Part shown: one piece after another, positions 8,623 to 62,514 of the stretch
Layout: the number at the start of each line of letters is the position of its first letter
How positions within the stretch are numbered: position 1 is the first letter of the stretch
Assembly: GCA_943359525.1 (NCBI GenBank)
Contig: CALRHV010000001.1
Location: 82,195 to 146,194, forward strand
Direction of reading: 5' to 3'
Length of the DNA: 64,000 nucleotides
Origin: Candidatus Uhrbacteria bacterium
GTDB taxonomy: Bacteria > Patescibacteriota > Patescibacteriia > UBA9934
Position numbers and translations under genes: made by a program
The notes under the pieces: model-generated
What the model saw: the letters and a program-made list of their open reading frames with translations, nothing else
Told to the model about the DNA's origin: nothing
The model's database searches: none

Positions 8623-10707
<2,085 letters not shown>

Positions 10708-28130: not shown

Positions 28131-28219
28131 GTCATCCCCGCGGCCTGTCCCCCGGAGGGGGAAGGCGGGGATCCATCATTCCGAACGATCTGGATCCCCG
28201 CCTACGCGGGGATGACCAG
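28131..28219. repeat. composite of two GTCATCCCCGCG...GGGGATCC hairpin repeats (family i)
   Basis: GTCATCCCCGCGGCC-[CCCCCGGAGGGGG]-GGCGGGGATCC, then CTGGATCCCCGCCTACGCGGGGATGACCAG. Confidence 0.8.
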
Positions 28220-29124: not shown

Positions 29125-31953
29125 CTATTTCCCACAACACTTCTTAAACTTCTTTCCACTTCCGCAATGACATGGTTCGTTTGGTCGAGGTTTTTTGGAG
29201 GAATCGCTCTGGATCCCCGCCTGTGCGGGGATGACTGAGCCGGATGGGATGACGGAGTCTAAAGGAGCAACGGCAGGATTTGATTCTGCCTTCTCCGCCG
29301 GCACATCGATCACCGTTGTTCCGCCACTGGATTGCTGCGATAAAAACTGCACCGCGTTGCGCATGAGTTGAGGAGCGGTTTCCATGATGTGCTTTGCGGC
29401 GAGATGTTGGTCGATGATTTTGAAGAGGTTGTACGAAACTTCGCGGCCGAGTTCGGAACGCATCGTGTTGTAGAGGCGATACGATTCGCGCTTGTATTCA
29501 ACAAGAGGATCACGCTGGGCGTAACCTTGCAACCCGATGGTACGGCGCAAGTAGGTCATGTCGTCCAAGTGCTGCATCCACAGCGTGTCGTTGGCGCGCA
29601 ACAAAATATTACGCTCAAGCGCCATAAGGTGTTTTGCATCACCAAACTTTTCAATAGCACCATCGTATGCACGACGAATTGCGCCGTTGACGATCTCGAT
29701 GACGTGGCTGCGTTGATACGCAAGATTTTCTTTGTCGATCGAAAGCGTCGAAAGTTCTTCACGAATCGCAGTCGATTCCCCGTCCTCGAGTTTCACGATC
29801 GTGCTGAGGCTTTCAACAATTTCTTGCGGATCCCAATCTGGCTTGCCCGCCTCGTCTTCTACGAAATCCTTCGGCACGTCGGCTTCCGCCTTGCTCGTGT
29901 GAAAGAACACCACACGTTCGATTTCTTTTTCAACAATTGAGTGCACGAGTTCATGCGCTTTCTCCTCATTCTTCATGACCTCTTTGCGTTCGTTGTACAC
30001 GGCAGTGCGATGCTTATTCAGCACGTCGTCGTATTCCAACACGTGTTTACGTGTGTCGAAGTGATGACCTTCCACACGCTGCTGCGATTTCTCAAGCGCC
30101 TTTGTGACCATCTTGCTTTCGATTGGTGTTGCATCGTCAATACCGAGTTTGTCCATCATACCTTTCACACGATCGCTTCCGAAGATACGCATCAAGTCGT
30201 CGTCGAGTGACACAAAGAACTGCGTGCTACCAGGATCACCTTGGCGACCAGCGCGTCCACGGAGCTGATTGTCGATGCGACGTGATTCGTGGCGTTCGGT
30301 GCCGATCACGTGCAAACCACCGAGCTTCTTTACCTCGTCCGCCATTGCCGCATCCACTGGGTTTCCACCAAGCAAAATGTCCACACCACGCCCAGCCATG
30401 TTTGTGGCAAGTGTTACCGCGCCACGTCGTCCAGCCTGTGCGATAATTTCGCCTTCACGTTCGTGGTTCTTTGCGTTGAGTGTGTTGTGAATAACGCCAG
30501 CCGCAGTAAGAAACTTTGAGAGCGCTTCGTTCTTGTCGATCGACACGGTTCCGATGAGGACTGGCTGACCGATCTCGTTCAAACGCTTCACTTCTTCAAC
30601 AACCGCCATCCACTTTCCCATTTCATTCTTGTAAATGCGATCTGGTAAATCCTTACGACGCGCTTCGTGATTGGTTGGAATAGTGACAACGTCGAGTTTA
30701 TAAATCTTCGCGAATTCCTCGGCTTCCGTGCTCGCCGTTCCGGTCATACCAGAAAGCTTCTCGTACATGCGGAAATAATTCTGGAACGTAATCGTTGCGA
30801 GCGTCTTGCTCTCGCGCTGAATTTTCACACCTTCCTTTGCCTCAATCGCTTGGTGCAAACCCTCCGAATATCGACGGCCTTCCATGATGCGACCAGTGAA
30901 TTCATCAACAATCAATACTTCGCCAGTGCGAACGACGTAGTCACGATCGATCTTAAACAACGAGTGTGCTTTCAATGCCTGCTCGGCGTGATGAACCATC
31001 GCAAGTCCTTCTTCGTAAATATTTTTCACGTTGAGTAAGCGCTCCAACTTTTGCAAGCCGTTTTCCGTGAACGTTGAAACGCGCATCTTCTCGTCGATAT
31101 TAAAATCTTCGCCCTCAACACAATTCCTGATGACGTCGGCGAATCGATAATACAGATCTGTCGATTCTTGCGCCGCAGCAGAAATAATCAACGGTGTACG
31201 TGCTTCGTCGATGAGAATTGAGTCGACCTCGTCCACAATAGCGTAATGCAAACCGCGCTGCACAACGTCCTCGGCACGACTCGCCATGTTGTCGCGTAAG
31301 TAATCGAAACCGAATTCATTGTTCGTACCGTACGTAATGTCGGCAGCATACGCTTGAGATCGGCTCACTGGACGCAACGAATCGGATGCGACGTGGAAAC
31401 CAGCAACAGTCTCCGCGCCTTCTGCTGGTGTCTCCACCTTAAAATCTGCGTCGTAAATATATCCACTTTCGTGCTGAATACACGCGACGGTTAAACCAAG
31501 CGACGCAAACACACGGCCCATCCACACAGAGTCGCGCTTTGCCAAATAGTCGTTCACCGTCACAAGGTGAACACCTTTTCCGGTGAGTGCGTTGAGATAC
31601 GTCGGCGCAGTTGCCGTGAGCGTCTTTCCCTCACCGGTTCGCATTTCCGCGATTGCTCCACGATGCAACGAAAGTCCGCCCATCATTTGCACATCAAAAT
31701 GACGTTGACCGAGTACGCGCTTACTCGCTTCACGAACAACAGCAAACGCCTCGTGCGCCATAGAATCAAGCGTCTCCCCGTTCGCGAGCCTTTCGCGGAA
31801 CGTCTGCGTCTTTGCTTTCAGCTCTTCTGCAGACAACGCTTTCAGTCCTTCCTCGAGTGCTGCAATTTTTTCAGCATCCTTCTTAAGATTCTTAACAACT
31901 TTTGCGTTTGGATCACCGAAAATCGTGGAAAGAGAGAAGGCCATAGATGGCAA
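29125..31953 (-). CDS. secA: preprotein translocase ATPase SecA; its C-terminal linker carries an in-frame insertion of a family (i) repeat
   Basis: 942 aa; DEAD-like motor, PPXD, HSD/HWD domains and a C-terminal zinc motif CHCGSGKKFKKCC; residues SVIPSGSVIPAQAGIQ are encoded by the repeat at 29209..29253. Confidence 0.95.
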   Translation of the reverse strand: MPSMAFSLSTIFGDPNAKVVKNLKKDAEKIAALEEGLKALSAEELKAKTQTFRERLANGETLDSMAHEAFAVVREASKRVLGQRHFDVQMMGGLSLHRGAIAEMRTGEGKTLTATAPTYLNALTGKGVHLVTVNDYLAKRDSVWMGRVFASLGLTVACIQHESGYIYDADFKVETPAEGAETVAGFHVASDSLRPVSRSQAYAADITYGTNNEFGFDYLRDNMASRAEDVVQRGLHYAIVDEVDSILIDEARTPLIISAAAQESTDLYYRFADVIRNCVEGEDFNIDEKMRVSTFTENGLQKLERLLNVKNIYEEGLAMVHHAEQALKAHSLFKIDRDYVVRTGEVLIVDEFTGRIMEGRRYSEGLHQAIEAKEGVKIQRESKTLATITFQNYFRMYEKLSGMTGTASTEAEEFAKIYKLDVVTIPTNHEARRKDLPDRIYKNEMGKWMAVVEEVKRLNEIGQPVLIGTVSIDKNEALSKFLTAAGVIHNTLNAKNHEREGEIIAQAGRRGAVTLATNMAGRGVDILLGGNPVDAAMADEVKKLGGLHVIGTERHESRRIDNQLRGRAGRQGDPGSTQFFVSLDDDLMRIFGSDRVKGMMDKLGIDDATPIESKMVTKALEKSQQRVEGHHFDTRKHVLEYDDVLNKHRTAVYNERKEVMKNEEKAHELVHSIVEKEIERVVFFHTSKAEADVPKDFVEDEAGKPDWDPQEIVESLSTIVKLEDGESTAIREELSTLSIDKENLAYQRSHVIEIVNGAIRRAYDGAIEKFGDAKHLMALERNILLRANDTLWMQHLDDMTYLRRTIGLQGYAQRDPLVEYKRESYRLYNTMRSELGREVSYNLFKIIDQHLAAKHIMETAPQLMRNAVQFLSQQSSGGTTVIDVPAEKAESNPAVAPLDSVIPSGSVIPAQAGIQSDSSKKPRPNEPCHCGSGKKFKKCCGK
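29209..29253. repeat. family (i) hairpin repeat inside the secA coding sequence
   Basis: CTGGATCCCCGCCTGTGCGGGGATGAC plus TGAGCCGGATGGGATGAC; the secA frame reads through it as VIPAQAGIQ. Confidence 0.85.
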
Positions 31954-32232: not shown

Positions 32233-32637
32233 CTATGGCTTCGCTGATCGACCCCCTCTATCTCCCCCTTGAAAAGGGGGAGGACATGAGGCTGCAATCT
32301 GAAGAAGAACGCCGTCCAAATTTCTCATCACATCATTATTCGTGAATCGAAGGATTCGAAAATCAAGACCGATTAAATATGCAGTGCGTTCTGCATCGTA
32401 AACCAACCCTTCTCGAGTAAAATGAGAATCTCCATCAACCTCAATCACTATACGATGCATCGGCGAACAGAAATCAACAATAAAAGATCCAATTCCAAAT
32501 TGACGGCGAAACTTTATCCCAAGAGTGCCGTTTCGTAATTCTTTCCAAAGTATTCTTTCTGGTATTGTCATGCTTCCGCGAAGATTTCTCCGACGTTCAA
32601 TGCTCCACGCAGGATTAAATAGCTTCGTCATACACAC
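32233..32637 (-). CDS. DUF559 (Vsr-like endonuclease fold) domain protein in an AT-rich insert
   Basis: ERILWKELRN...FRRQ..IG.FIVDF......VIEVDG.SH layout; the body is AT-rich relative to the flanks; the C-terminus runs into a G5 hairpin repeat. Confidence 0.6.
   Translation of the reverse strand: MCMTKLFNPAWSIERRRNLRGSMTIPERILWKELRNGTLGIKFRRQFGIGSFIVDFCSPMHRIVIEVDGDSHFTREGLVYDAERTAYLIGLDFRILRFTNNDVMRNLDGVLLQIAASCPPPFQGGDRGGRSAKP
32252..32283. repeat. G5/C5 hairpin repeat (family iii)
   Basis: CCCCCTCTATCTCCCCCTTGAAAAGGGGGAGG. Confidence 0.8.
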
Positions 32638-32640
32638 CCC

Positions 32641-32738
32641 CTCCTTACTCCCCCTTGAAAAGGGGGAGGGACATAAACTAAACCGAACGTAGCCCCACTT
32701 ATTCCTCTCCCCCTTTTCAAGGGGGAGTCGGAGGGGGT
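32641..32738. repeat. two further family (iii) hairpins in tandem
   Basis: CTCCCCCTTGAAAAGGGGGAGGG ... CTCCCCCTTTTCAAGGGGGAG ... GGAGGGGGTC. Confidence 0.8.
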
Positions 32739-34160
32739 CTAATACACCAGATTCCTCGCCACTCCATCAACGTCCCCCGCACCCATCACAATCACCACAT
32801 CGCTTGGCAGAATAATCTCTCGGAGTTTCGACTCCGCCTCAACAAGGTCCTTCGCGCAATGTCCTTCTTTTGGCGGTGTTGCCGATTGCATTGCCGCATC
32901 GAGAAGTTTTTTACTCGTCACCGATTCATCACGCACTTCCGTTCTGCCAAGCACGCCGTATATTTCGGAAAGGATCAACACATCCGCTCCACCGAACGAA
33001 TCGGCGAAGTCGTCGAAAAGTTCTTTTGTCCGATTATGCTGATGCGGTTCGAAGAGCAACACAATACGACTCGTTGGAAAAAATTCTCTGGCGCCTGCAA
33101 GCGTTCCTTTGATCGCAGACGGATGATGGCCGTAGTCCGAGATGATCTGCGCGCCATTGTACTCGCCGACGCGTTCGAATCGTCGCCAAATTCCAGCGAA
33201 CGAAGCCAGCGATTCGAGAATATTCTGCAGCCCAATACCGTATTCCAGCGCAACCGCTTTTGCCGCGAGCGCATTCATCATATTGAACAAGCCAGGAATA
33301 CTCAGCGTGAGCGTTCCAAGTTTTTTCGCTTTGCGAATCGCGCCGTCCTGCTCAAGAATATCCAGTGATTGCGTGCCGTTCGCAAAATAGCGATCGACGT
33401 ACGGCATCGGTTCGTTCCACGATGTAAATGCGTGTTGCATGAGCTCGTATCCGTAAATTCCAATACGTGCCGAACCGTCGCCACGATACAAACATCGTTG
33501 CTGATCCTTCATGGTAATCCATACGGTCTTCTTTGTCTGACGTCCAAGCTGCGCGAACATCGCCTCAACATCGGCAAGGTCTTTATATACATCAGTGTGA
33601 TCCAGTTCTACGTTCGTGATCACTGTTGTTTCTGGGAAAAGCTTCAACACCTTTCGCAGATACTCGTCACCTTCAATAATCATGATATCGCTCTTTCCAA
33701 CCACAACGTTCCCATATTTCCATCCCGGCACGATCGATCCTACAAACACCGTCGGATCCATTCCGGCATCGATGAAGATCTTTCCCGCCATCGCGGTGGT
33801 CGTCGACTTCCCATTGGTTCCAGTGATACAGATCGTTCGATAGTCTTTCGAGAGTTCGCCAAGAAAATCGAAATGCCCCATTTGTGAAATACCGCGCTCC
33901 GATGCCGCCGCACGTTCAGTATTCTCTTCAGTCGCCGCTTCGGTGTACACGACGAGATCAGTCTCCGATGGGATATTCGACGCGTCATGGCCGATCGATA
34001 CTGGAATTCCGAGATCGATGAGGCCGTCAGTAATCATCGACTGTTTTGCATCGCTTCCCGAAACCGAAACGCCTTTCGCACACAAAAACTTCATCACGCC
34101 ACTGATTCCAATTCCTCCCGCGCCAATACAGTGGACGTGGCGATACGACTCTAGATTCAT
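32739..34160 (-). CDS. murC: UDP-N-acetylmuramate--L-alanine ligase
   Basis: 473 aa; N-terminal GIGGIGISG, Mur ligase central and C-terminal domains. Confidence 0.9.
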   Translation of the reverse strand: MNLESYRHVHCIGAGGIGISGVMKFLCAKGVSVSGSDAKQSMITDGLIDLGIPVSIGHDASNIPSETDLVVYTEAATEENTERAAASERGISQMGHFDFLGELSKDYRTICITGTNGKSTTTAMAGKIFIDAGMDPTVFVGSIVPGWKYGNVVVGKSDIMIIEGDEYLRKVLKLFPETTVITNVELDHTDVYKDLADVEAMFAQLGRQTKKTVWITMKDQQRCLYRGDGSARIGIYGYELMQHAFTSWNEPMPYVDRYFANGTQSLDILEQDGAIRKAKKLGTLTLSIPGLFNMMNALAAKAVALEYGIGLQNILESLASFAGIWRRFERVGEYNGAQIISDYGHHPSAIKGTLAGAREFFPTSRIVLLFEPHQHNRTKELFDDFADSFGGADVLILSEIYGVLGRTEVRDESVTSKKLLDAAMQSATPPKEGHCAKDLVEAESKLREIILPSDVVIVMGAGDVDGVARNLVY

Positions 34161-38397: not shown

Positions 38398-38448
38398 CGT
38401 CTAACCTACGAGAGATGGTTACTGGATCCCCGCCTTCGCGGGGATGAC
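38398..38448. repeat. chimeric family (ii)/(i) hairpin repeat between convergent folD and uvrA
   Basis: CTAACCTACGAGAGAT (a family ii arm fragment) followed by CTGGATCCCCGCCTTCGCGGGGATGACTGA. Confidence 0.8.
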
Positions 38449-40983: not shown

Positions 40984-43095
40984 TTACGTTCTCCGAGATC
41001 GTTTTTCCTTCTTTCCCTTCTTCATTCCCAACAGCTCCTTGCTCAACAACGCGATCTCGTCTCGCAGAATCGCCGCAGTCTCGAACAACAGGTTCGCCGA
41101 CGCTTTGTCCATTTCAATCTCCTTCTCACGAATTGCTTCTTCAATCTCAACCGGGGTCGCGCTGATTTCGATGTTCAGAATCTTCGAGGTGTCGGCTTCG
41201 AAGTTTCTGTCGAGTTCTGCGCGAATGTCTTTAATCGTTTTAATGATCGTCTGCGGCGTGATGCTGTGTTTGACGTTGTGTGCAATTTGGATGTTGCGAC
41301 GACGTTCGGTTTCTTTCAGCGCCCTGTCGAGCGATCCCGTCATCTTGTCGGCATACAGAACGACCAAGCCGTTGATGTTTCGCGCAGCACGACCGATGGT
41401 TTGAATGAGCGAGGTTTCCGATCGCAGGAAGCCTTCCTTGTCCGCGTCGAGCACGCCGATGAGTGACACCTCAGGAAGATCGAGCCCCTCACGAAGCAAG
41501 TTCACTCCGACGACAACGTCGTATGTTCCCTTTCGCAACTCAGTGAGAATCGTAATCCGATCGAGCGTTTCGACATCGGAATGGAGATACGCCACTTTCA
41601 TGCCGCCTTCTTTCAGGTACGCTGTTAAATCCTCGGCCATCTTTTTTGTGAGCGTGGTGACGAGTGCGCGTTCGCCTTTGGTGACACGATCTTTGATGCG
41701 TTCGGTGATGTCGGAGACTTGGCCGGGGAAGCCCCCTCCAACTCCCCCATAAATGGGGGAGAGGTTATCACCGAGCGGCCCCCCTCCATTTATGGAGGGG
41801 CTGGGGGAGGCGAGCGTCGCCGTCACCGGCAATACCAATGTCTCTGGGTCGACTAAACCGGTTGGACGAATGATTTGCTCAACAATCTGCTCCGATGTTT
41901 CTTTTTCGACGACTCCCGGTGTTGCAGATACGTACACGGTTTGACCGATCGTTTTATCGAACTCTTGGTACGTAAGCGGTCGATTATCCTTCGCCGATGG
42001 GAGACGGAAACCGAAATCAACGAGCGTTTGTTTTCGCGCCTGATCACCAGCGAACATTCCGCCAATCTGTGGGAGCGTGACGTGTGATTCGTCGATGATG
42101 GTAAGAAAATCTTTCGGAAAGTATGACAGCAACGTGTGTGCCGGTTCACCAACACGACGTCCATCAAAGTGACGTGAATAGTTTTCAATACCACTGCAAT
42201 ACCCAACGTTCCGAATCATCTCGATATCGTATCGCGTTCGTCGCATGAGGCGCTCCGATTCTAAAAGCTTCCCTTCTTTCTCGAACTCCCTCAAACGATC
42301 CGCGAGCTCGTTCTCGATGTCGCGAATTGCCCGTTCACGCTCGGCGCTATCGGACATGAAATGCTTCGCCGGAAAGAACCACGCGTCCTCGTTCTGTGTG
42401 ATGATCTTTCGCGTAACCTTATTCAACGAAAAAATCTCACGCACCGCGTTTCCTTCAATCACAATCCGATACACGATTTCATCACTCGGCGGCATGACTT
42501 CGATAACGTCGCCATTTGCGCGAAAGTGGCCACGAGTAAGATCGGCATTCGTGCGTTCGTACTGCATCGAAACAAGCTGACGAAGAAAGTCTGCACGATC
42601 GATCCGGTCGCCGACTCGCATATGAAGCACCTCGCGTTTGTATGCTTCCGGCGAACCTAATCCATAAATACAGCTCACCGAGGCAACGACGATCACATCG
42701 CGACGGGATAAAAGAGATTGCGTTGCGGCATGGCGAAGGCGATCGATCTCCTCGTTGATCTGCGCGTCCTTCTCAATATACGTGTCTGTTCGCGGCATGT
42801 ACGCCTCTGGCTGGTAGTAGTCGTAATACGAAACGAAGTAGGAAACGGCATTGTCAGGAAAAAACTCGCGGAACTCGGAACAGAGCTGCGCGGCGAGGGT
42901 TTTGTTGTGCGCAATCACCAACGTTGGCTTCTGCACATTTTGAATAACATTCGCCATGGTAAACGTCTTTCCCGAACCCGTCACCCCAAGCAACGTCTGC
43001 CGATGCAAGCCGTCGTTGATGCCGTCCGTCAGATCGGCAATGGCTTTCGGCTGATCACCGGCTGGAGAATATTTTGAGACGAGATTGAAGGGCAT
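40984..43095 (-). CDS. uvrB: excinuclease ABC subunit B with an in-frame insertion of a G5-hairpin repeat
   Basis: Walker A GVTGSGKT, DESH, helicase C domain; the stretch LASPSPSINGGGPLGDNLSPIYGGVGGGFPG after RPTG is encoded by the repeat at 41731..41810; start taken at MPFNL (43095). Confidence 0.9.
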   Translation of the reverse strand: MPFNLVSKYSPAGDQPKAIADLTDGINDGLHRQTLLGVTGSGKTFTMANVIQNVQKPTLVIAHNKTLAAQLCSEFREFFPDNAVSYFVSYYDYYQPEAYMPRTDTYIEKDAQINEEIDRLRHAATQSLLSRRDVIVVASVSCIYGLGSPEAYKREVLHMRVGDRIDRADFLRQLVSMQYERTNADLTRGHFRANGDVIEVMPPSDEIVYRIVIEGNAVREIFSLNKVTRKIITQNEDAWFFPAKHFMSDSAERERAIRDIENELADRLREFEKEGKLLESERLMRRTRYDIEMIRNVGYCSGIENYSRHFDGRRVGEPAHTLLSYFPKDFLTIIDESHVTLPQIGGMFAGDQARKQTLVDFGFRLPSAKDNRPLTYQEFDKTIGQTVYVSATPGVVEKETSEQIVEQIIRPTGLVDPETLVLPVTATLASPSPSINGGGPLGDNLSPIYGGVGGGFPGQVSDITERIKDRVTKGERALVTTLTKKMAEDLTAYLKEGGMKVAYLHSDVETLDRITILTELRKGTYDVVVGVNLLREGLDLPEVSLIGVLDADKEGFLRSETSLIQTIGRAARNINGLVVLYADKMTGSLDRALKETERRRNIQIAHNVKHSITPQTIIKTIKDIRAELDRNFEADTSKILNIEISATPVEIEEAIREKEIEMDKASANLLFETAAILRDEIALLSKELLGMKKGKKEKRSRRT
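41731..41810. repeat. family (iii) G5/C5 hairpin repeat inside the uvrB coding sequence
   Basis: CCCCCTCCAACTCCCCCATAAATGGGGGAGAGG...CCCCTCCATTTATGGAGGGGCTGGGGGAGG: two palindromic hairpins. Confidence 0.85.
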
Positions 43096-44764: not shown

Positions 44765-45416
44765 ATGACAACCGCCAAAGTCTTTTCAAATGCATCGGCC
44801 ACCACGGCTCATGCCGAAAGCCTTCAGAACGCACTCGCAAGTCACATCGTCGCTCGCGGCGATACTCCGCTCACCGCGGACAGCATCGCGAAAGTGATCG
44901 TCTCCCAGTTCACGGACCACAACAATCCCAACGTCCTCGCGGCGAAGGTGATTTTGTACATGTGGTTCAAAGACGGCACGGCGCTCCACCGCATCGGCCA
45001 GAAGGAGCAGATCATGATCGCCGAAGAACTCCGTTGGAGCTTCCAGCCGGCAGAAGGATCGGGGCACGTTACCGTCGGCGTGGAATGGCTCGAAGGCTTG
45101 CTCCTGGAACGCGAACGTCTCACCAATCTCCTCGTGGAATGCGGGCAGACAGACGCGCTATTCAAGGAGGTGGTGAACGGCCCGAAGAGCGATAACCCCG
45201 CGCTGTTCAAGTCCGTCGAAACGCTGAACCTCCCGGTCCGTGTACAAAATGGGTTGATCAACTGCAGAATCGATCTCATCTGGCAACTCGTGGAAAAGAC
45301 GGAGAGCGAACTTGAGGGGCTTCGGTCCGACTTACGTAGTCCACATCGTCCGCGCACTCGGCGAGGAAGGACTCAAGCTCAGCACAAACCTGGGACCGCT
45401 CTTCCACAGGCGATGA
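44765..45416 (+). pseudogene. protein with a C-terminal RNA-polymerase alpha-CTD-like HhH domain, interrupted by a +1 frameshift in a GGGG run near 45316
   Basis: Frame 1 ends ...LNLPVRVQNGLINCRIDLIWQLVEKTESELEG; the +1 frame continues FGPTYVVHIVRALGEEGLKLSTNLGPLFHRR-stop, matching the end of alpha-CTD. The tail of the original frame is Arg-rich junk running into a family (i) repeat. Confidence 0.45.
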
Positions 45417-45526
45417 CCACAGTCACGATCACCCCACGACGGGCCGCCCACCAGCGGCTCGTTTGCGTTTTGGCGTGTTACAATCGAGGACGAAACTCAT
45501 CTTCTCCGTTTTCCTTAACATTTCCC

Positions 45527-45553
45527 TTGGATCCCCGCTTTCGCGAGGATGAC
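45527..45553. repeat. family (i) hairpin repeat (slightly degenerate)
   Basis: TTGGATCCCCGCTTTCGCGAGGATGAC. Confidence 0.7.
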
Positions 45554-45582
45554 TAAATATATACAATTTCGGCTCTGAATAT

Positions 45583-57161: not shown

Positions 57162-57439
57162 ATCGTTTCAGTCATGCTGAGCGTTAGCGAAGCATCTCTC
57201 GCAGGGTATCTGGATTACCTACGGGAGATTCTTCACTTCGTTCAGAATGACGAACAGAATTCGAAATGCTATAGTTTTCCCATATGGAATGTCCAAAATG
57301 TCATCGTGCAACAACGGGGATCAAAACCGATACCACAAAAGGAAGGCACGGCGAGGTGTATGTTCGCGAAGCATCGCGATGTCCGCGATGCGATGTGTGG
57401 GTGACGGTCGAGACACCGAAAGAAGCCAAGGAATAACAA

Positions 57440-60785: not shown

Positions 60786-60869
60786 GTCATCCTGAACGAA
60801 GTGAAGGATCTCTCGCAGGTGATCCGGACTAACCTACGAGAGATTCTTCGCTACGCTCAGAATGACTGA
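60786..60869. repeat. family (ii) long imperfect inverted-repeat hairpin, copy B
   Basis: GTCATCCTGAACGAAGTGAAGGATCTCTCGCAGG-15 nt-CCTACGAGAGATTCTTCGCTACGCTCAGAATGACTGA. Confidence 0.85.
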
Positions 60870-62250: not shown

Positions 62251-62331
62251 GTCATCCTGAACGGAGTGAAGGATCTCTCGCAGGTCATCCGAATACCCTA
62301 CGGAGATTCTTCGCTTCGCTCAGAATGACTG
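62251..62331. repeat. family (ii) inverted-repeat hairpin, copy C, directly 5' of the GT-B gene start
   Basis: GTCATCCTGAACGGAGTGAAGGATCTCTCGCAGG-...-CCTACGGAGATTCTTCGCTTCGCTCAGAATGACTGA. Confidence 0.85.
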
Positions 62332-62402: not shown

Positions 62403-62514
62403 GTCATCCCCGCGCAGGCGGGGATCCAGAGTGTTCTGAATGAAGATCGTGTCAGTATTCATCCCAAAAATTCTTCAATGTATTCTGGATCCCCGCCTGC
62501 GCGGGGATGACCAG
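62403..62514. repeat. inverted pair of family (i) repeats with a 55-nt spacer
   Basis: GTCATCCCCGCGCAGGCGGGGATCCAG at 62403..62429 and CTGGATCCCCGCCTGCGCGGGGATGACCAG at 62485..62514. Confidence 0.85.

What the first reader, a model, noticed from the sequence alone, without database searches (positions are those of the whole stretch)
29209..29253. Hairpin repeat inserted in frame in the SecA C-terminal linker
The family (i) repeat CTGGATCCCCGCCTGTGCGGGGATGAC, plus a half-copy, lies inside secA. The reading frame passes through it and adds SVIPSGSVIPAQAGIQ. The insertion sits between the conserved body and the zinc-binding tail CHCGSGKKFKKCC. The same 27-nt unit occurs at six or more intergenic sites in this window. 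This is the behaviour described for Rickettsia palindromic elements, which are selfish hairpins tolerated as peptide insertions in essential genes.
Basis: seen in the sequence. Interest (0 to 1): 0.75.

Follow-up and report, generated by a model that had tools for sequence, protein, structure and literature searches.

The report
REP hairpin read through inside SecA
A 27-base hairpin repeat of a known, cross-phylum family (CGTC-1 REP, the same family as Neisseria dRS3/NTS and Rickettsia RPE-6) sits in frame in the flexible tail linker of the essential SecA protein of a tiny groundwater (CPR) bacterium, and relatives carry four different hairpin families at the same spot.

Summary
secA (29125..31944, minus strand) reads through GTCATCCCCGCACAGGCGGGGATCCAG (29209-29235) as VIPAQAGIQ. 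The site lies between the scaffold domain and the SEC-C zinc motif. The same protein occurs on three independent assemblies.

The element is a CGTC-1 REP: GTC tag, 8-bp stem starting AT, 4-nt loop, CCA tail. That family equals Neisseria dRS3/NTS, the Ssn-related motif, and Rickettsia conorii RPE-6. The same peptide, VIPAKAGI, is already listed for R. conorii proteins. New here are the host phylum (Patescibacteria) and the target (SecA linker).

Further findings:
- The identical hairpin occurs in more than 120 stretches from many phyla, with a fixed GNAR loop.
- The upstream half-copy is a family-wide signature (23 of 142 copies upstream, 3 downstream).
- The element is frozen at the DNA level: 7 of 8 third positions invariant, against 19% in the secA body (P = 6e-5).
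- Close orthologues carry four hairpin families in the same linker. One is a family-B unit at the same left junction, inside a 100%-bootstrap clade of family-A carriers.
- In three relatives it is the only such hairpin in 22.8 kb.

No Ssn or RAYT gene lies in the window. Verdict: new member of a known kind, moderate interest.

The parts
29209..29236 (-). CGTC-1 REP / Ssn-related-motif hairpin inside secA: A-GTC tag, stem ATCCCCGC (29225-29232) / GCGGGGAT (29213-29220), loop ACAG (29221-29224), tail CCAG. It is read as VIPAQAGIQ.
   Evidence: Exact sequence. It matches the published SRM regex. As DNA the hairpin folds at -12.2 and -13.3 kcal/mol on the two strands, z -3.9 and -5.1, with 0 of 200 shuffles as good.
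29242..29259 (-). Upstream 18-nt unit GACTCCGTCATCCCATCC, a partial tandem duplicate of flank plus left arm. The half-copy GTCATCCC is at 29246-29253. It encodes DSVIPS.
   Evidence: One search shows decayed versions in orthologues (GTTGTCCC, GTTATCCCC, GCAACTCC). The same flank-plus-left-arm arrangement, mostly with a period of 15-24 nt (several of those with a near-identical duplicated flank), appears upstream in 23 of 142 copies from other phyla, against 3 downstream.
29125..31944 (-). secA coding sequence (939 aa from ATG; the ORF extends to a TTG at 31953).
   Evidence: P0001 is 100% identical.
29182..29388 (-). SecA C-terminal flexible linker (about residues 856-924), which varies in length and sequence. 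It hosts the hairpin.
   Evidence: Pfam domain limits. Indel-rich alignment of 25 orthologues. The FLD and MBD architecture of the SecA tail is described in PMC6620043.
29125..29181 (-). SEC-C zinc-binding motif (NEPCHCGSGKKFKKCCGK) plus the stop codon.
   Evidence: PF02810 hit at residues 925-942. It aligns to the B. subtilis SecA tail.
28190..28216 (-). Intergenic family-A copy (GGTCATCCCCGCGTAGGCGGGGATCCAG). It forms an inverted dimer with the split copy at 28131.
28131..28175 (+). Family-A copy with a 20-nt hairpin-containing insert (GCCTGTCCCCCGGAGGGGGA) nested in its loop.
38422..38448 (-). Intergenic family-A copy between convergent folD and uvrA. It is followed by the TCTCGTAGG module shared with family B.
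45527..45553 (+). Degenerate family-A copy read on its reverse strand as LDPRFREDD, with TAA flush against it. It forms the 3' end of the orphan ORF 44765..45556.
62403..62429 (+). Intergenic family-A copy with a canonical CGTC tag. It is the left member of an inverted dimer.
62485..62511 (-). Intergenic family-A copy, the right member of the inverted dimer (55-nt spacer).

Best explanation
The feature is a CGTC-1-type repetitive extragenic palindrome embedded in frame in the flexible linker of the SecA C-terminal tail. This is the hairpin family known as dRS3/NTS in Neisseria, as the Ssn-related motif, and as RPE-6 in Rickettsia conorii. The host is a Patescibacteria (Uhrbacteria-like) bacterium.

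Shown:
- The unit has the family's tag, stem, loop and tail.
- It is one of about 7 copies of its family in the window, and the other copies are almost all intergenic.
- Five of its six reading frames are open, so it is translated as VIPAQAGIQ without breaking SecA.
- The host segment is a tether that varies freely in length and sequence between the SecA scaffold and the zinc finger.

Inferred:
- It entered the linker in an ancestor of the P0001-P0008 clade. The more distant relatives P0022-P0025 show no recognisable hairpin peptide (L131 confirmed at the DNA level), although the linker is too divergent to reconstruct an exact empty site.
- Since then it has been held at the DNA level rather than the peptide level. 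The cause is either gene conversion from the dispersed genomic copies or selection for recognition by a hairpin-specific protein such as an Ssn-type single-strand nuclease.
- The site undergoes turnover, in which one GTCAT-tagged or other hairpin replaces another.
- The upstream half-copy is a scar typical of this family. It lies on the side where SsnA is known to cut, so it may record nick-and-repair or the insertion event itself.
For: Identity:
- The sequence anatomy matches the CGTC-1 definition (PMC3733652).
- It matches the NTS consensus CGTCATTCCCGCGMAVGCGGGAATCYRG apart from one compensated stem pair, and it matches the SRM regex (PMC11893778; 3 hits against 0.3 expected).
- The peptide VIPAKAGI is listed for R. 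conorii CGTC-1 inserts.

Cross-phylum family:
- More than 120 stretches in the species-genome collection (scan truncated), against under 1 expected by my own calculation.
- The unspecified loop bases are fixed as G-N-A-R at 99%.

In-frame and tolerated:
-.
- The FLD is a flexible linker and is not required for translocation in E. coli (PMC6620043).

Not an artefact: three assemblies plus four orthologues.

DNA-level constraint:
- Third positions at identical residues differ by 37-48% pairwise in the secA body.
- They are invariant across 5 lineages in 139 of 724 body columns, but in 7 of 8 element codons (P = 6e-5).
- The flanking linker DNA is divergent.

Turnover:
- L003 has family B at the same left junction and is nested in a 100%-bootstrap clade with family-A carriers.
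- P0006 (A) and P0008 (D) are sisters at 100%.
- L008 has family C. L130 has family B in another frame. L129 has a decayed copy. L131 has none.

Depletion from genes elsewhere: 1 of 13 clear copies in the window lies inside a real CDS, although 89% of the window is coding.

Half-copy: 23 of 142 upstream against 3 downstream. SsnA cuts a few nt upstream on the CGTCAT strand only.
Against: - No Ssn-type GIY-YIG gene and no Y1 or RAYT transposase was found in the window or in about 190 kb of related CPR loci. The protein that would recognise or move the hairpin in this organism is therefore unidentified.
- The first base of the tag in the secA copy is A, a minority variant (4% across phyla).
- The loop's first base is A instead of the near-invariant G. 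That change is synonymous.
- The exact empty site cannot be reconstructed, because the linker is unalignable at 76% identity.
- Families B and C are not predicted to fold stably by nearest-neighbour rules. Calling them hairpins relies on non-canonical G.A pairs.
- The link between the half-copy and Ssn cleavage is inference only.
Confidence: 0.8

Rival explanations
1. The linker hairpin is a selected cis-acting element and not a tolerated parasite. It could be a DNA or RNA structure that modulates expression of secA or the downstream gene, replication or repair, or ribosome pausing just before the zinc-finger module. This would explain why the site stays occupied.
For: DNA-level conservation (P = 6e-5). 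The hairpin always lies 82-95 nt from the secA stop, in 10 loci. In L003, L008 and L130 it is the only family-type hairpin in 22.8 kb. 13 of the 19 closest orthologues carry some hairpin-derived peptide there. The RNA context folds at -34.5 kcal/mol, z -3.65.
Against: Four unrelated hairpin sequences occupy the site, including two that are not predicted to fold stably. L129's copy is decaying, and L131, P0022, P0024 and P0025 have none. The same 27-mer is equally conserved at hundreds of unrelated loci across phyla, so the conservation need not relate to secA. No experiment was done.
Confidence: 0.15
2. The shared site reflects repeated independent, site-specific insertions into a hot spot, not inheritance followed by replacement. 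The hot spot could be a target such as ...TCA|GTCAT or a pre-existing hairpin.
For: Different families and a different reading frame occur in L130. Many copies in the window are preceded by yCA. A nested insertion into the loop of another copy at 28131 shows that hairpins can target hairpins. Di Nocera et al. noted different REPs at about the same site in Xanthomonas recB.
Against: Family A is shared by five lineages spanning the whole P0001-P0008 clade. They have the same frame, the same downstream offset (88 nt) and the same decayed upstream half-copy, which is most simply explained by inheritance.
Confidence: 0.2
3. The block is an assembly or binning artefact: a repeat-induced chimera joining the SecA body to a foreign zinc-finger tail.
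For: Short dispersed repeats can mis-join metagenomic contigs. The window is from a metagenome-assembled genome.
Against: The identical product occurs on three separately assembled contigs. Orthologues from four other samples have the same arrangement. The SEC-C tail is the normal end of SecA. A 27-nt repeat is shorter than typical assembly k-mers (k141 and k127 appear in the contig names).
Confidence: 0.02
4. The sequence is ordinary SecA linker coding sequence that resembles the repeat by chance or by convergent evolution.
For: Low-complexity linkers rich in P, S, A, G and Q are common.
Against: There is a 27/27 match to a family with zero chance expectation. It matches a published 28-nt degenerate motif. 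Synonymous sites are frozen. Outgroup orthologues lack it.
Confidence: 0.01

Closest known systems
CGTC-1 REPs (Di Nocera et al. 2013, PMC3733652) = Neisseria dRS3 / NTS and Ssn-related motifs (PMC11893778)
   Same: It has the GTC tag, an 8-bp stem beginning AT, a 4-nt G-N-A-R loop and a CCA(G) tail. Copies are dispersed and mostly intergenic, and there are inverted dimers. It matches the SRM regex. It differs from the NTS consensus by a single compensated pair (ATTCCCGC becomes ATCCCCGC).
   Different: The host is a Patescibacteria genome. That phylum is not among the five phyla listed in 2013 and is not mentioned in the 2025 main text. No Ssn gene was found locally. This copy is intragenic, in SecA, which is absent from the 2013 intragenic table.
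Rickettsia palindromic elements RPE-6 (= CGTC-1) and RPE-4 (= CGTC-4) inserted in frame in R. conorii genes
   Same: It is the same repeat superfamily, and by the Di Nocera assignment the same family as RPE-6. It shows the same behaviour: in-frame read-through in housekeeping proteins. The encoded peptide is essentially the same (VIPAKAGI against VIPAQAGIQ).
   Different: The phylum and lifestyle differ. It is a single 27-nt unit, much shorter than the 100-150-bp RPE-1 elements that made the phenomenon famous (that length is from my own knowledge of Ogata et al. 2000). Here the same site shows turnover among four hairpin families.
GTAG-tagged REPs / REPINs mobilised by RAYT transposases
   Same: These are also short palindromic dispersed repeats, often arranged as inverted doublets, and occasionally intragenic.
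   Different: The tag is GTC(AT), not GTAG. No Y1 or RAYT gene was detected in the window. CGTC REPs are reported to lack a dedicated transposase.
Different REPs at about the same position in Xanthomonas campestris and X. oryzae recB (Di Nocera et al. 2013)
   Same: It is a precedent for different REP units occupying the same position of one orthologous gene.
   Different: That case was only noted in passing. Here the pattern is documented with a phylogeny, junction sequences, four families and a synonymous-site test.

Membership tests
CGTC-1 REP (Di Nocera 2013) | Unpaired 5' tag CGTC (variants TGTC and CCTC) | tested here: met
   GTC is invariant. The first base is A in the secA and 38422 copies, C in the 62403 copy, and G in the 28190 and 62485 copies. 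Across phyla it is C 66%, T 27%, A 4%. The SRM motif allows A, C or T.
CGTC-1 REP (Di Nocera 2013) | 8-bp stem whose first two pairs are A-T and T-A | tested here: met
   ATCCCCGC pairs with GCGGGGAT perfectly.
CGTC-1 REP (Di Nocera 2013) | 4-nt loop of a few major types | tested here: met
   The loop is ACAG in the window and GCAG in four orthologues. The family loop is G-N-A-R.
CGTC-1 REP (Di Nocera 2013) | Short unpaired tail fitting CCA | tested here: met
   The tail is ...GGGGAT-CCAG. Across phyla A follows CC in 94% of copies.
CGTC-1 REP (Di Nocera 2013) | Multi-copy, mostly intergenic, often in inverted dimers | tested here: met
   There are 7 family-A copies in 64 kb. 1 of 13 clear A and B copies lies inside a real gene. 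Dimers are at 28131/28190 and 62403/62485.
NTS/SRM-Ssn system (PMC11893778) | Sequence matches the degenerate SRM motif HGTCWYN(0-2)YYVSBRHN(0-5)WNVSBRGN(0-2)RNCYNB | tested here: met
   The secA copy matches, as do two others. That is 3 hits against a mean of 0.3 in 100 shuffles.
NTS/SRM-Ssn system (PMC11893778) | The genome encodes a single-domain GIY-YIG Ssn nuclease (cd10448), often flanked by the motif | tested here: inconclusive
   No GIY-YIG was found among 35 small ORFs of the window. None was found by HMM in all six-frame ORFs of the window plus 11 CPR loci, except L042. Only 64 kb of this genome was available. L042 (Moraniibacteria) has a GIY-YIG ORF, but it is not flanked by hairpins.
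NTS/SRM-Ssn system (PMC11893778) | Strand-specific ssDNA binding and cleavage a few nt upstream of the hairpin | not testable with these tools
   This needs biochemistry. The only indirect hint is the upstream-only half-copy signature.
Rickettsia palindromic elements (RPE) | In-frame insertion in a conserved protein-coding gene, absent from more distant orthologues | tested here: met
Rickettsia palindromic elements (RPE) | Sequence relationship to a named RPE family | tested here: met
   By the literature equivalence CGTC-1 = RPE-6 and the shared peptide VIPAKAGI in R. conorii RC0483 and RC0657. I made no direct alignment to Rickettsia DNA.
Rickettsia palindromic elements (RPE) | Insert lies in a part of the protein that tolerates it (surface or linker) | tested here: met
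   The linker is indel-rich and unalignable among orthologues. The FLD is flexible and not required for translocation in E. coli. No structure was predicted here.
Rickettsia palindromic elements (RPE) | RPE-1-type size (about 100-150 bp) and a Rickettsia host | tested here: not met
   The unit is 27 nt and the host is a Patescibacteria bacterium. The size criterion is from my own knowledge of Ogata et al. 2000.
GTAG REP / REPIN-RAYT | GTAG tag and an associated RAYT (Y1 transposase) | tested here: not met
   The tag is GTCAT. There is no Y1_Tnp among the window's small ORFs.

The most novel reading that the evidence does not exclude
The SecA linker may be a fixed landing pad at which hairpin repeats replace one another by a targeted, hairpin-directed mechanism. 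One candidate is a nick just upstream of the GTCAT tag followed by templated repair from another genomic copy. Under this reading the in-gene copy is actively homogenised or selected, not merely tolerated. If so, this locus would be a natural, phylogenetically resolved record of how the 'transposase-less' CGTC/SRM hairpins move. It would also tie the upstream flank-plus-left-arm duplication seen across phyla to that mechanism.
Probability: 0.2. Interest if true: 0.7.

Novelty: new member of a known kind. Interest (0 to 1): 0.5.

Why it matters
In-frame REP or RPE insertions in housekeeping genes are a known curiosity. This case extends the CGTC-1/NTS hairpin family to the Candidate Phyla Radiation, which has very small genomes, and to SecA, an essential protein.

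More usefully, the graded series of orthologues (95% down to 76% identity) gives a time series at one site. It shows inheritance, synonymous-site freezing, decay, loss, and replacement by three other hairpin families.

How CGTC-type hairpins spread has been open since 2013, when no transposase could be found for them. The 2025 discovery of Ssn nucleases that cut just upstream of these hairpins has not settled it. The upstream-only half-copy signature and the same-junction replacement seen here are concrete, testable footprints of that process.

On the practical side, annotators should expect VIPAxAGIQ, LDPRLRGDD and WIPAxAGMT peptides in CPR proteins and spurious ORFs to be repeat-derived.

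Tried and rejected
- Generic hairpin enrichment. Perfect stems of 7 bp or more number 61 in the window against 42-62 in Markov shuffles. The signal is therefore family-specific and not a general excess of hairpins.
- My first reading of the half-copy was an unrelated PSDS-type tandem in the linker, because orthologues show GCAACTCC or GCTTCTCC there. I dropped this after finding the same flank-plus-left-arm duplication upstream of 23 of 142 copies in unrelated phyla.
- CRISPR type I-E repeat resemblance (stem CCCCGC/GCGGGG, recalled from memory). I rejected it because the copies are dispersed at kilobase distances and in both orientations, and there is no array.
- RAYT/REPIN membership. Rejected because the tag is wrong and no Y1 transposase was found.
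- Search for an Ssn partner. A regex found nothing. A heuristic for ORFs bracketed by hairpins gave no clean seed. Pfam on 35 small ORFs was negative. An HMM built from two recovered GIY-YIG seeds was negative except for the L042 control.
- Second coding example. ORF 44765..45556 has no homologues other than itself, so it is untestable.
- Rfam has no family for these hairpins; its only hits were two tRNAs.
- Literature search for palindromic repeats in the Candidate Phyla Radiation found nothing relevant.
- DNA for P0008 could not be retrieved.
Full report
**1. Observation**

The plus strand at 29209-29235 reads CTGGATCCCCGCCTGTGCGGGGATGAC. The only long ORF across it is on the minus strand, 29125..31953. 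It is 942 aa from a TTG, and 939 aa from the ATG at 31944. The 939-aa form is 100% identical to database protein P0001.

Pfam finds all the SecA domains. The wing/scaffold domain ends near residue 846-855, and the SEC-C zinc motif covers residues 925-942. The protein aligns end to end with the B. subtilis SecA structures, including the tail NEPCHCGSGKKFKKCCGK.

On the coding strand the unit is GTC ATC CCC GCA CAG GCG GGG ATC CAG, which encodes VIPAQAGIQ at residues 907-915 of the 942-aa ORF. Eighteen nucleotides upstream lies GTCATCCC (29246-29253).

The family is far beyond chance: 5 matches at 3 or fewer mismatches against 0.00 expected. Besides secA there are four intact copies (28190, 38422, 62403, 62485). 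There is a degenerate copy at 45527. There is also a copy at 28131-28175 whose loop carries a nested 20-nt insert.

**2. Not an artefact**

The exact 939-aa product is encoded on three separately assembled contigs from different projects. Orthologues from four other samples, with 95, 94, 89 and 86% protein identity, carry the same 27-mer in the same frame.

**3. What the element is**

The organism is a Patescibacteria (CPR) bacterium close to Candidatus Uhrbacteria.

The window contains at least 12 units with the architecture GTCAT-stem-loop-stem'-ATC, against about 4 chance matches per shuffle. They fall into two families:
- Family A has stem CCCCGC and includes the secA copy.
- Family B (GTCATCCTGAGCGAAGCGAAGGATC) mostly occurs as inverted pairs around a TCTCGCAGG...CCTACGAGA stem.

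The hosts were Alpha-, Beta-, Gamma- and Deltaproteobacteria, Planctomycetes, Gemmatimonadota, Omnitrophota, Cloacimonadota, Hydrogenedentota, Chloroflexi, Rhodothermota-like bacteria, Parcubacteria and Moraniibacteria. For 21 specified bases in 596 Gb I calculate fewer than one chance match.

In 143 such copies the four unspecified loop bases are G (99%), N, A (99%), R. The next base is A (94%), and the base before GTC is C (66%) or T (27%). This is one conserved element.

The literature identifies it:
- Di Nocera et al. 2013 (PMC3733652) define CGTC-tagged REPs. Family CGTC-1 has an 8-bp stem beginning AT, a 4-nt loop and a CCA tail. They state that CGTC-1 corresponds to Neisseria dRS3 and to R. 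conorii RPE-6, and CGTC-4 to RPE-4.
- The 2025 Ssn paper (PMC11893778) extends dRS3 to the 28-nt NTS, CGTCATTCCCGCGMAVGCGGGAATCYRG, and to a degenerate Ssn-related motif.
- The same paper shows that the 94-aa GIY-YIG protein SsnA binds the hairpin only as ssDNA, only on the CGTCAT strand, and cuts a few nucleotides upstream.

The secA copy matches that degenerate motif: 3 strict hits in the window against 0.3 expected. It differs from NTS by one compensated stem pair.

As DNA it folds at -12.2 and -13.3 kcal/mol on the two strands, with 0 of 200 shuffles as stable. Rfam has no family for it.

**4.

The RPE analogy is in fact family membership. Di Nocera's table of intragenic REPs lists VIPAKAGI as the CGTC-1 insert in several proteins:
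- R. conorii NADH dehydrogenase subunit C
- R. conorii phosphomannomutase
- a Chlorobium membrane protein
- Micavibrio DNA polymerase I, as SIPAKAGIQ

SecA and translocases do not occur in that table. Five of the six frames of the unit are open, which explains why read-through is easy.

The host segment corresponds to the flexible linker domain of the SecA C-terminal tail. In E. coli this domain tethers the metal-binding domain and is not required for translocation (PMC6620043). Among 25 orthologues it is full of indels and essentially unalignable.

**5. The half-copy**

In orthologues the corresponding octamer has decayed: GTTGTCCC, GTTATCCCC, GCAACTCC, GCTTCTCC. It is therefore an old 18-nt duplication of flank plus left arm.

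The same arrangement appears in unrelated phyla: X-L-X-L-loop-R, mostly with a period of 15-24 nt, and in several of those the duplicated flank is near-identical (10-12 of 12 bases). A left-half copy lies within 45 nt upstream in 23 of 142 copies but downstream in only 3. The right half appears 3 times on either side.

The duplication sits on the side where SsnA cuts. I infer, but cannot show, that it is a scar of nicking and repair or of the insertion event.

**6. Evolution at the site**

- L003 (93% identical SecA) has a family-B unit, GTCATGCTGAGCGAAAGCGAAGCATCTCTCGCAGG. It sits at the same left junction (...CCATCCGACTCA|GTCAT) and in the same frame.
- L008 (86%) has GTCATTGCGAGTGTAGCAAAGCAATCC.
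- L130 (78%) has a family-B unit read in another frame (SHPEG).
- L129 (80%) has a decayed TGTCATCCCGACGAAAGGAGGGATCTC.
- L131 (76%) has none.
- P0008 and P0019 carry LPL[LN]KGESEGV. This is what the window's third hairpin family encodes: CTCCCCCTTTTCAAGGGGGAGTCGGAGGGGGTC translates to LPLFKGESEGV. I had no DNA for those two proteins.

A neighbour-joining tree of the SecA body puts P0003 (family B) inside a 100%-bootstrap clade with the family-A carriers P0001, P0002 and P0004. It makes P0006 (A) and P0008 (D) sisters at 100%, within a 100% clade P0001-P0008. The simplest reading is an ancestral family-A insertion followed by replacements.

Thirteen of 120 homologue tails show recognisable hairpin peptides, and all thirteen are among the 19 closest.

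**7. DNA-level constraint**

Between the five family-A lineages, third codon positions at identical residues differ by 37-48% in the secA body. Across all five they are invariant in only 139 of 724 columns (19%), but in 7 of 8 element codons (binomial P = 6e-5).

The single third-position difference is the window's synonymous GCG to GCA change in the loop. The flanking linker DNA is divergent, so the region was not recently transferred as a block.

The unit is therefore kept by something acting on the DNA: gene conversion from other copies, selection for the hairpin or its recognition, or re-insertion.

**8. Census**

With a greedy ORF tiling (89% coding), only the secA copy among 13 clear family A and B units in the window lies inside a real gene. 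One more forms the end of an orphan ORF that has no homologues.

In L003, L008 and L130 (22.8 kb each) the secA hairpin is the only family-type hairpin in the locus. In all loci it lies 82-95 nt from the secA stop. The site is thus occupied far more persistently than random insertion would predict.

**9. Partner enzyme**

- No GIY-YIG or Y1 transposase domain occurs among 35 small ORFs of the window.
- An HMM built from two GIY-YIG proteins recovered from the cross-phylum loci finds nothing in the window or in 11 CPR loci except its own source.
- That source, a Moraniibacteria locus, shows that CPR genomes with the hairpin can encode single-domain GIY-YIG proteins. The gene sits in a duplicated tRNA and is not between hairpins.
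- The hairpin pattern also occurs in 73 stretches of viral contigs.

**10. Verdict**

The feature is a CGTC-1 REP (dRS3/NTS/SRM/RPE-6 family) read through in the SecA flexible linker.

This is a new member of a known kind, with a new phylum and a new target gene. Three added observations are worth following up:
- same-site turnover among four hairpin families
- synonymous-site freezing of the in-gene copy
- a cross-phylum upstream half-copy signature on the side of the Ssn cut

The mechanism that maintains or exchanges the hairpin remains inferred.

Noticed in passing
window 32233-32740 (and 41742-41761): The DUF559/MTES_1575 restriction-endonuclease-like gene just upstream of secA (32233..32631, minus strand) is bracketed by a third hairpin family, CTCCCCCTT-GAA-AAGGGGGAG. 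Copies are at 32262-82 (inside the gene's 3' end), 32648-68 and 32707-27. A DUF559 gene sits upstream of secA in nearly all relatives, so it looks like a small mobile cassette.
   Followed up: partly
window 28131-28175: This family-A hairpin has a 20-nt insert (GCCTGTCCCCCGGAGGGGGA, itself a small hairpin) nested in its loop. It forms an inverted dimer with the intact copy at 28190. It shows that hairpins can insert into hairpins.
   Followed up: partly
window 57171-57251, 60786-60866, 62251-62329, 10674-10697: Family-B units (GTCATCCTGARCGNAGYGAAGGATC) occur as inverted pairs around a central TCTCGCAGG...CCTACGAGA stem, which is REPIN-like. All three pairs share the same C.A mismatch on the plus strand, equivalent to G.T on the minus strand. 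That hints the structure matters on one strand. Nearest-neighbour folding does not predict the unit itself to be stable.
   Followed up: partly
window 44765-45556: This orphan ORF has a weak RNA_pol_A_CTD hit. Its last nine codons (LDPRFREDD) and the abutting TAA stop are supplied by a degenerate family-A copy read on the reverse strand. There are no homologues other than itself, so it is untestable.
   Followed up: yes
window 29125-29181: The SecA zinc motif ends KKCCGK in this genome, whereas all 24 closest orthologues have KKCHGK. The His ligand is replaced by Cys, as in B. subtilis SecA.
   Followed up: no
L042 1840-2240: In a Candidatus Moraniibacteriota genome, an 81-aa single-domain GIY-YIG ORF (PF01541, E = 3.6e-16) lies between a truncated and a complete copy of the same tRNA gene, like a small homing element. 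About 800 nt away is an inverted dimer made of an ATTCCCGC and an ATCCCCGC hairpin variant.
   Followed up: partly
L016 5847-7310: Rhodopseudomonas pentothenatexigens has six copies of the hairpin at a period of about 310 nt in one orientation. This is a tandem array of a longer unit that contains the hairpin.
   Followed up: no
L132-L204 (IMG/VR): The exact hairpin pattern occurs in 73 stretches of viral contigs, several with multiple or inverted copies. This could be a vehicle for cross-phylum spread, or it could be prophage-flank contamination.
   Followed up: no
L003 12640-12700 and L007 2745-2800: Two orthologues share an extra GGCAGT-rich segment (GSGQSAVAES and GSRQLAGAES) in the same SecA linker. 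It looks like another simple repeat type colonising the tether.
   Followed up: no
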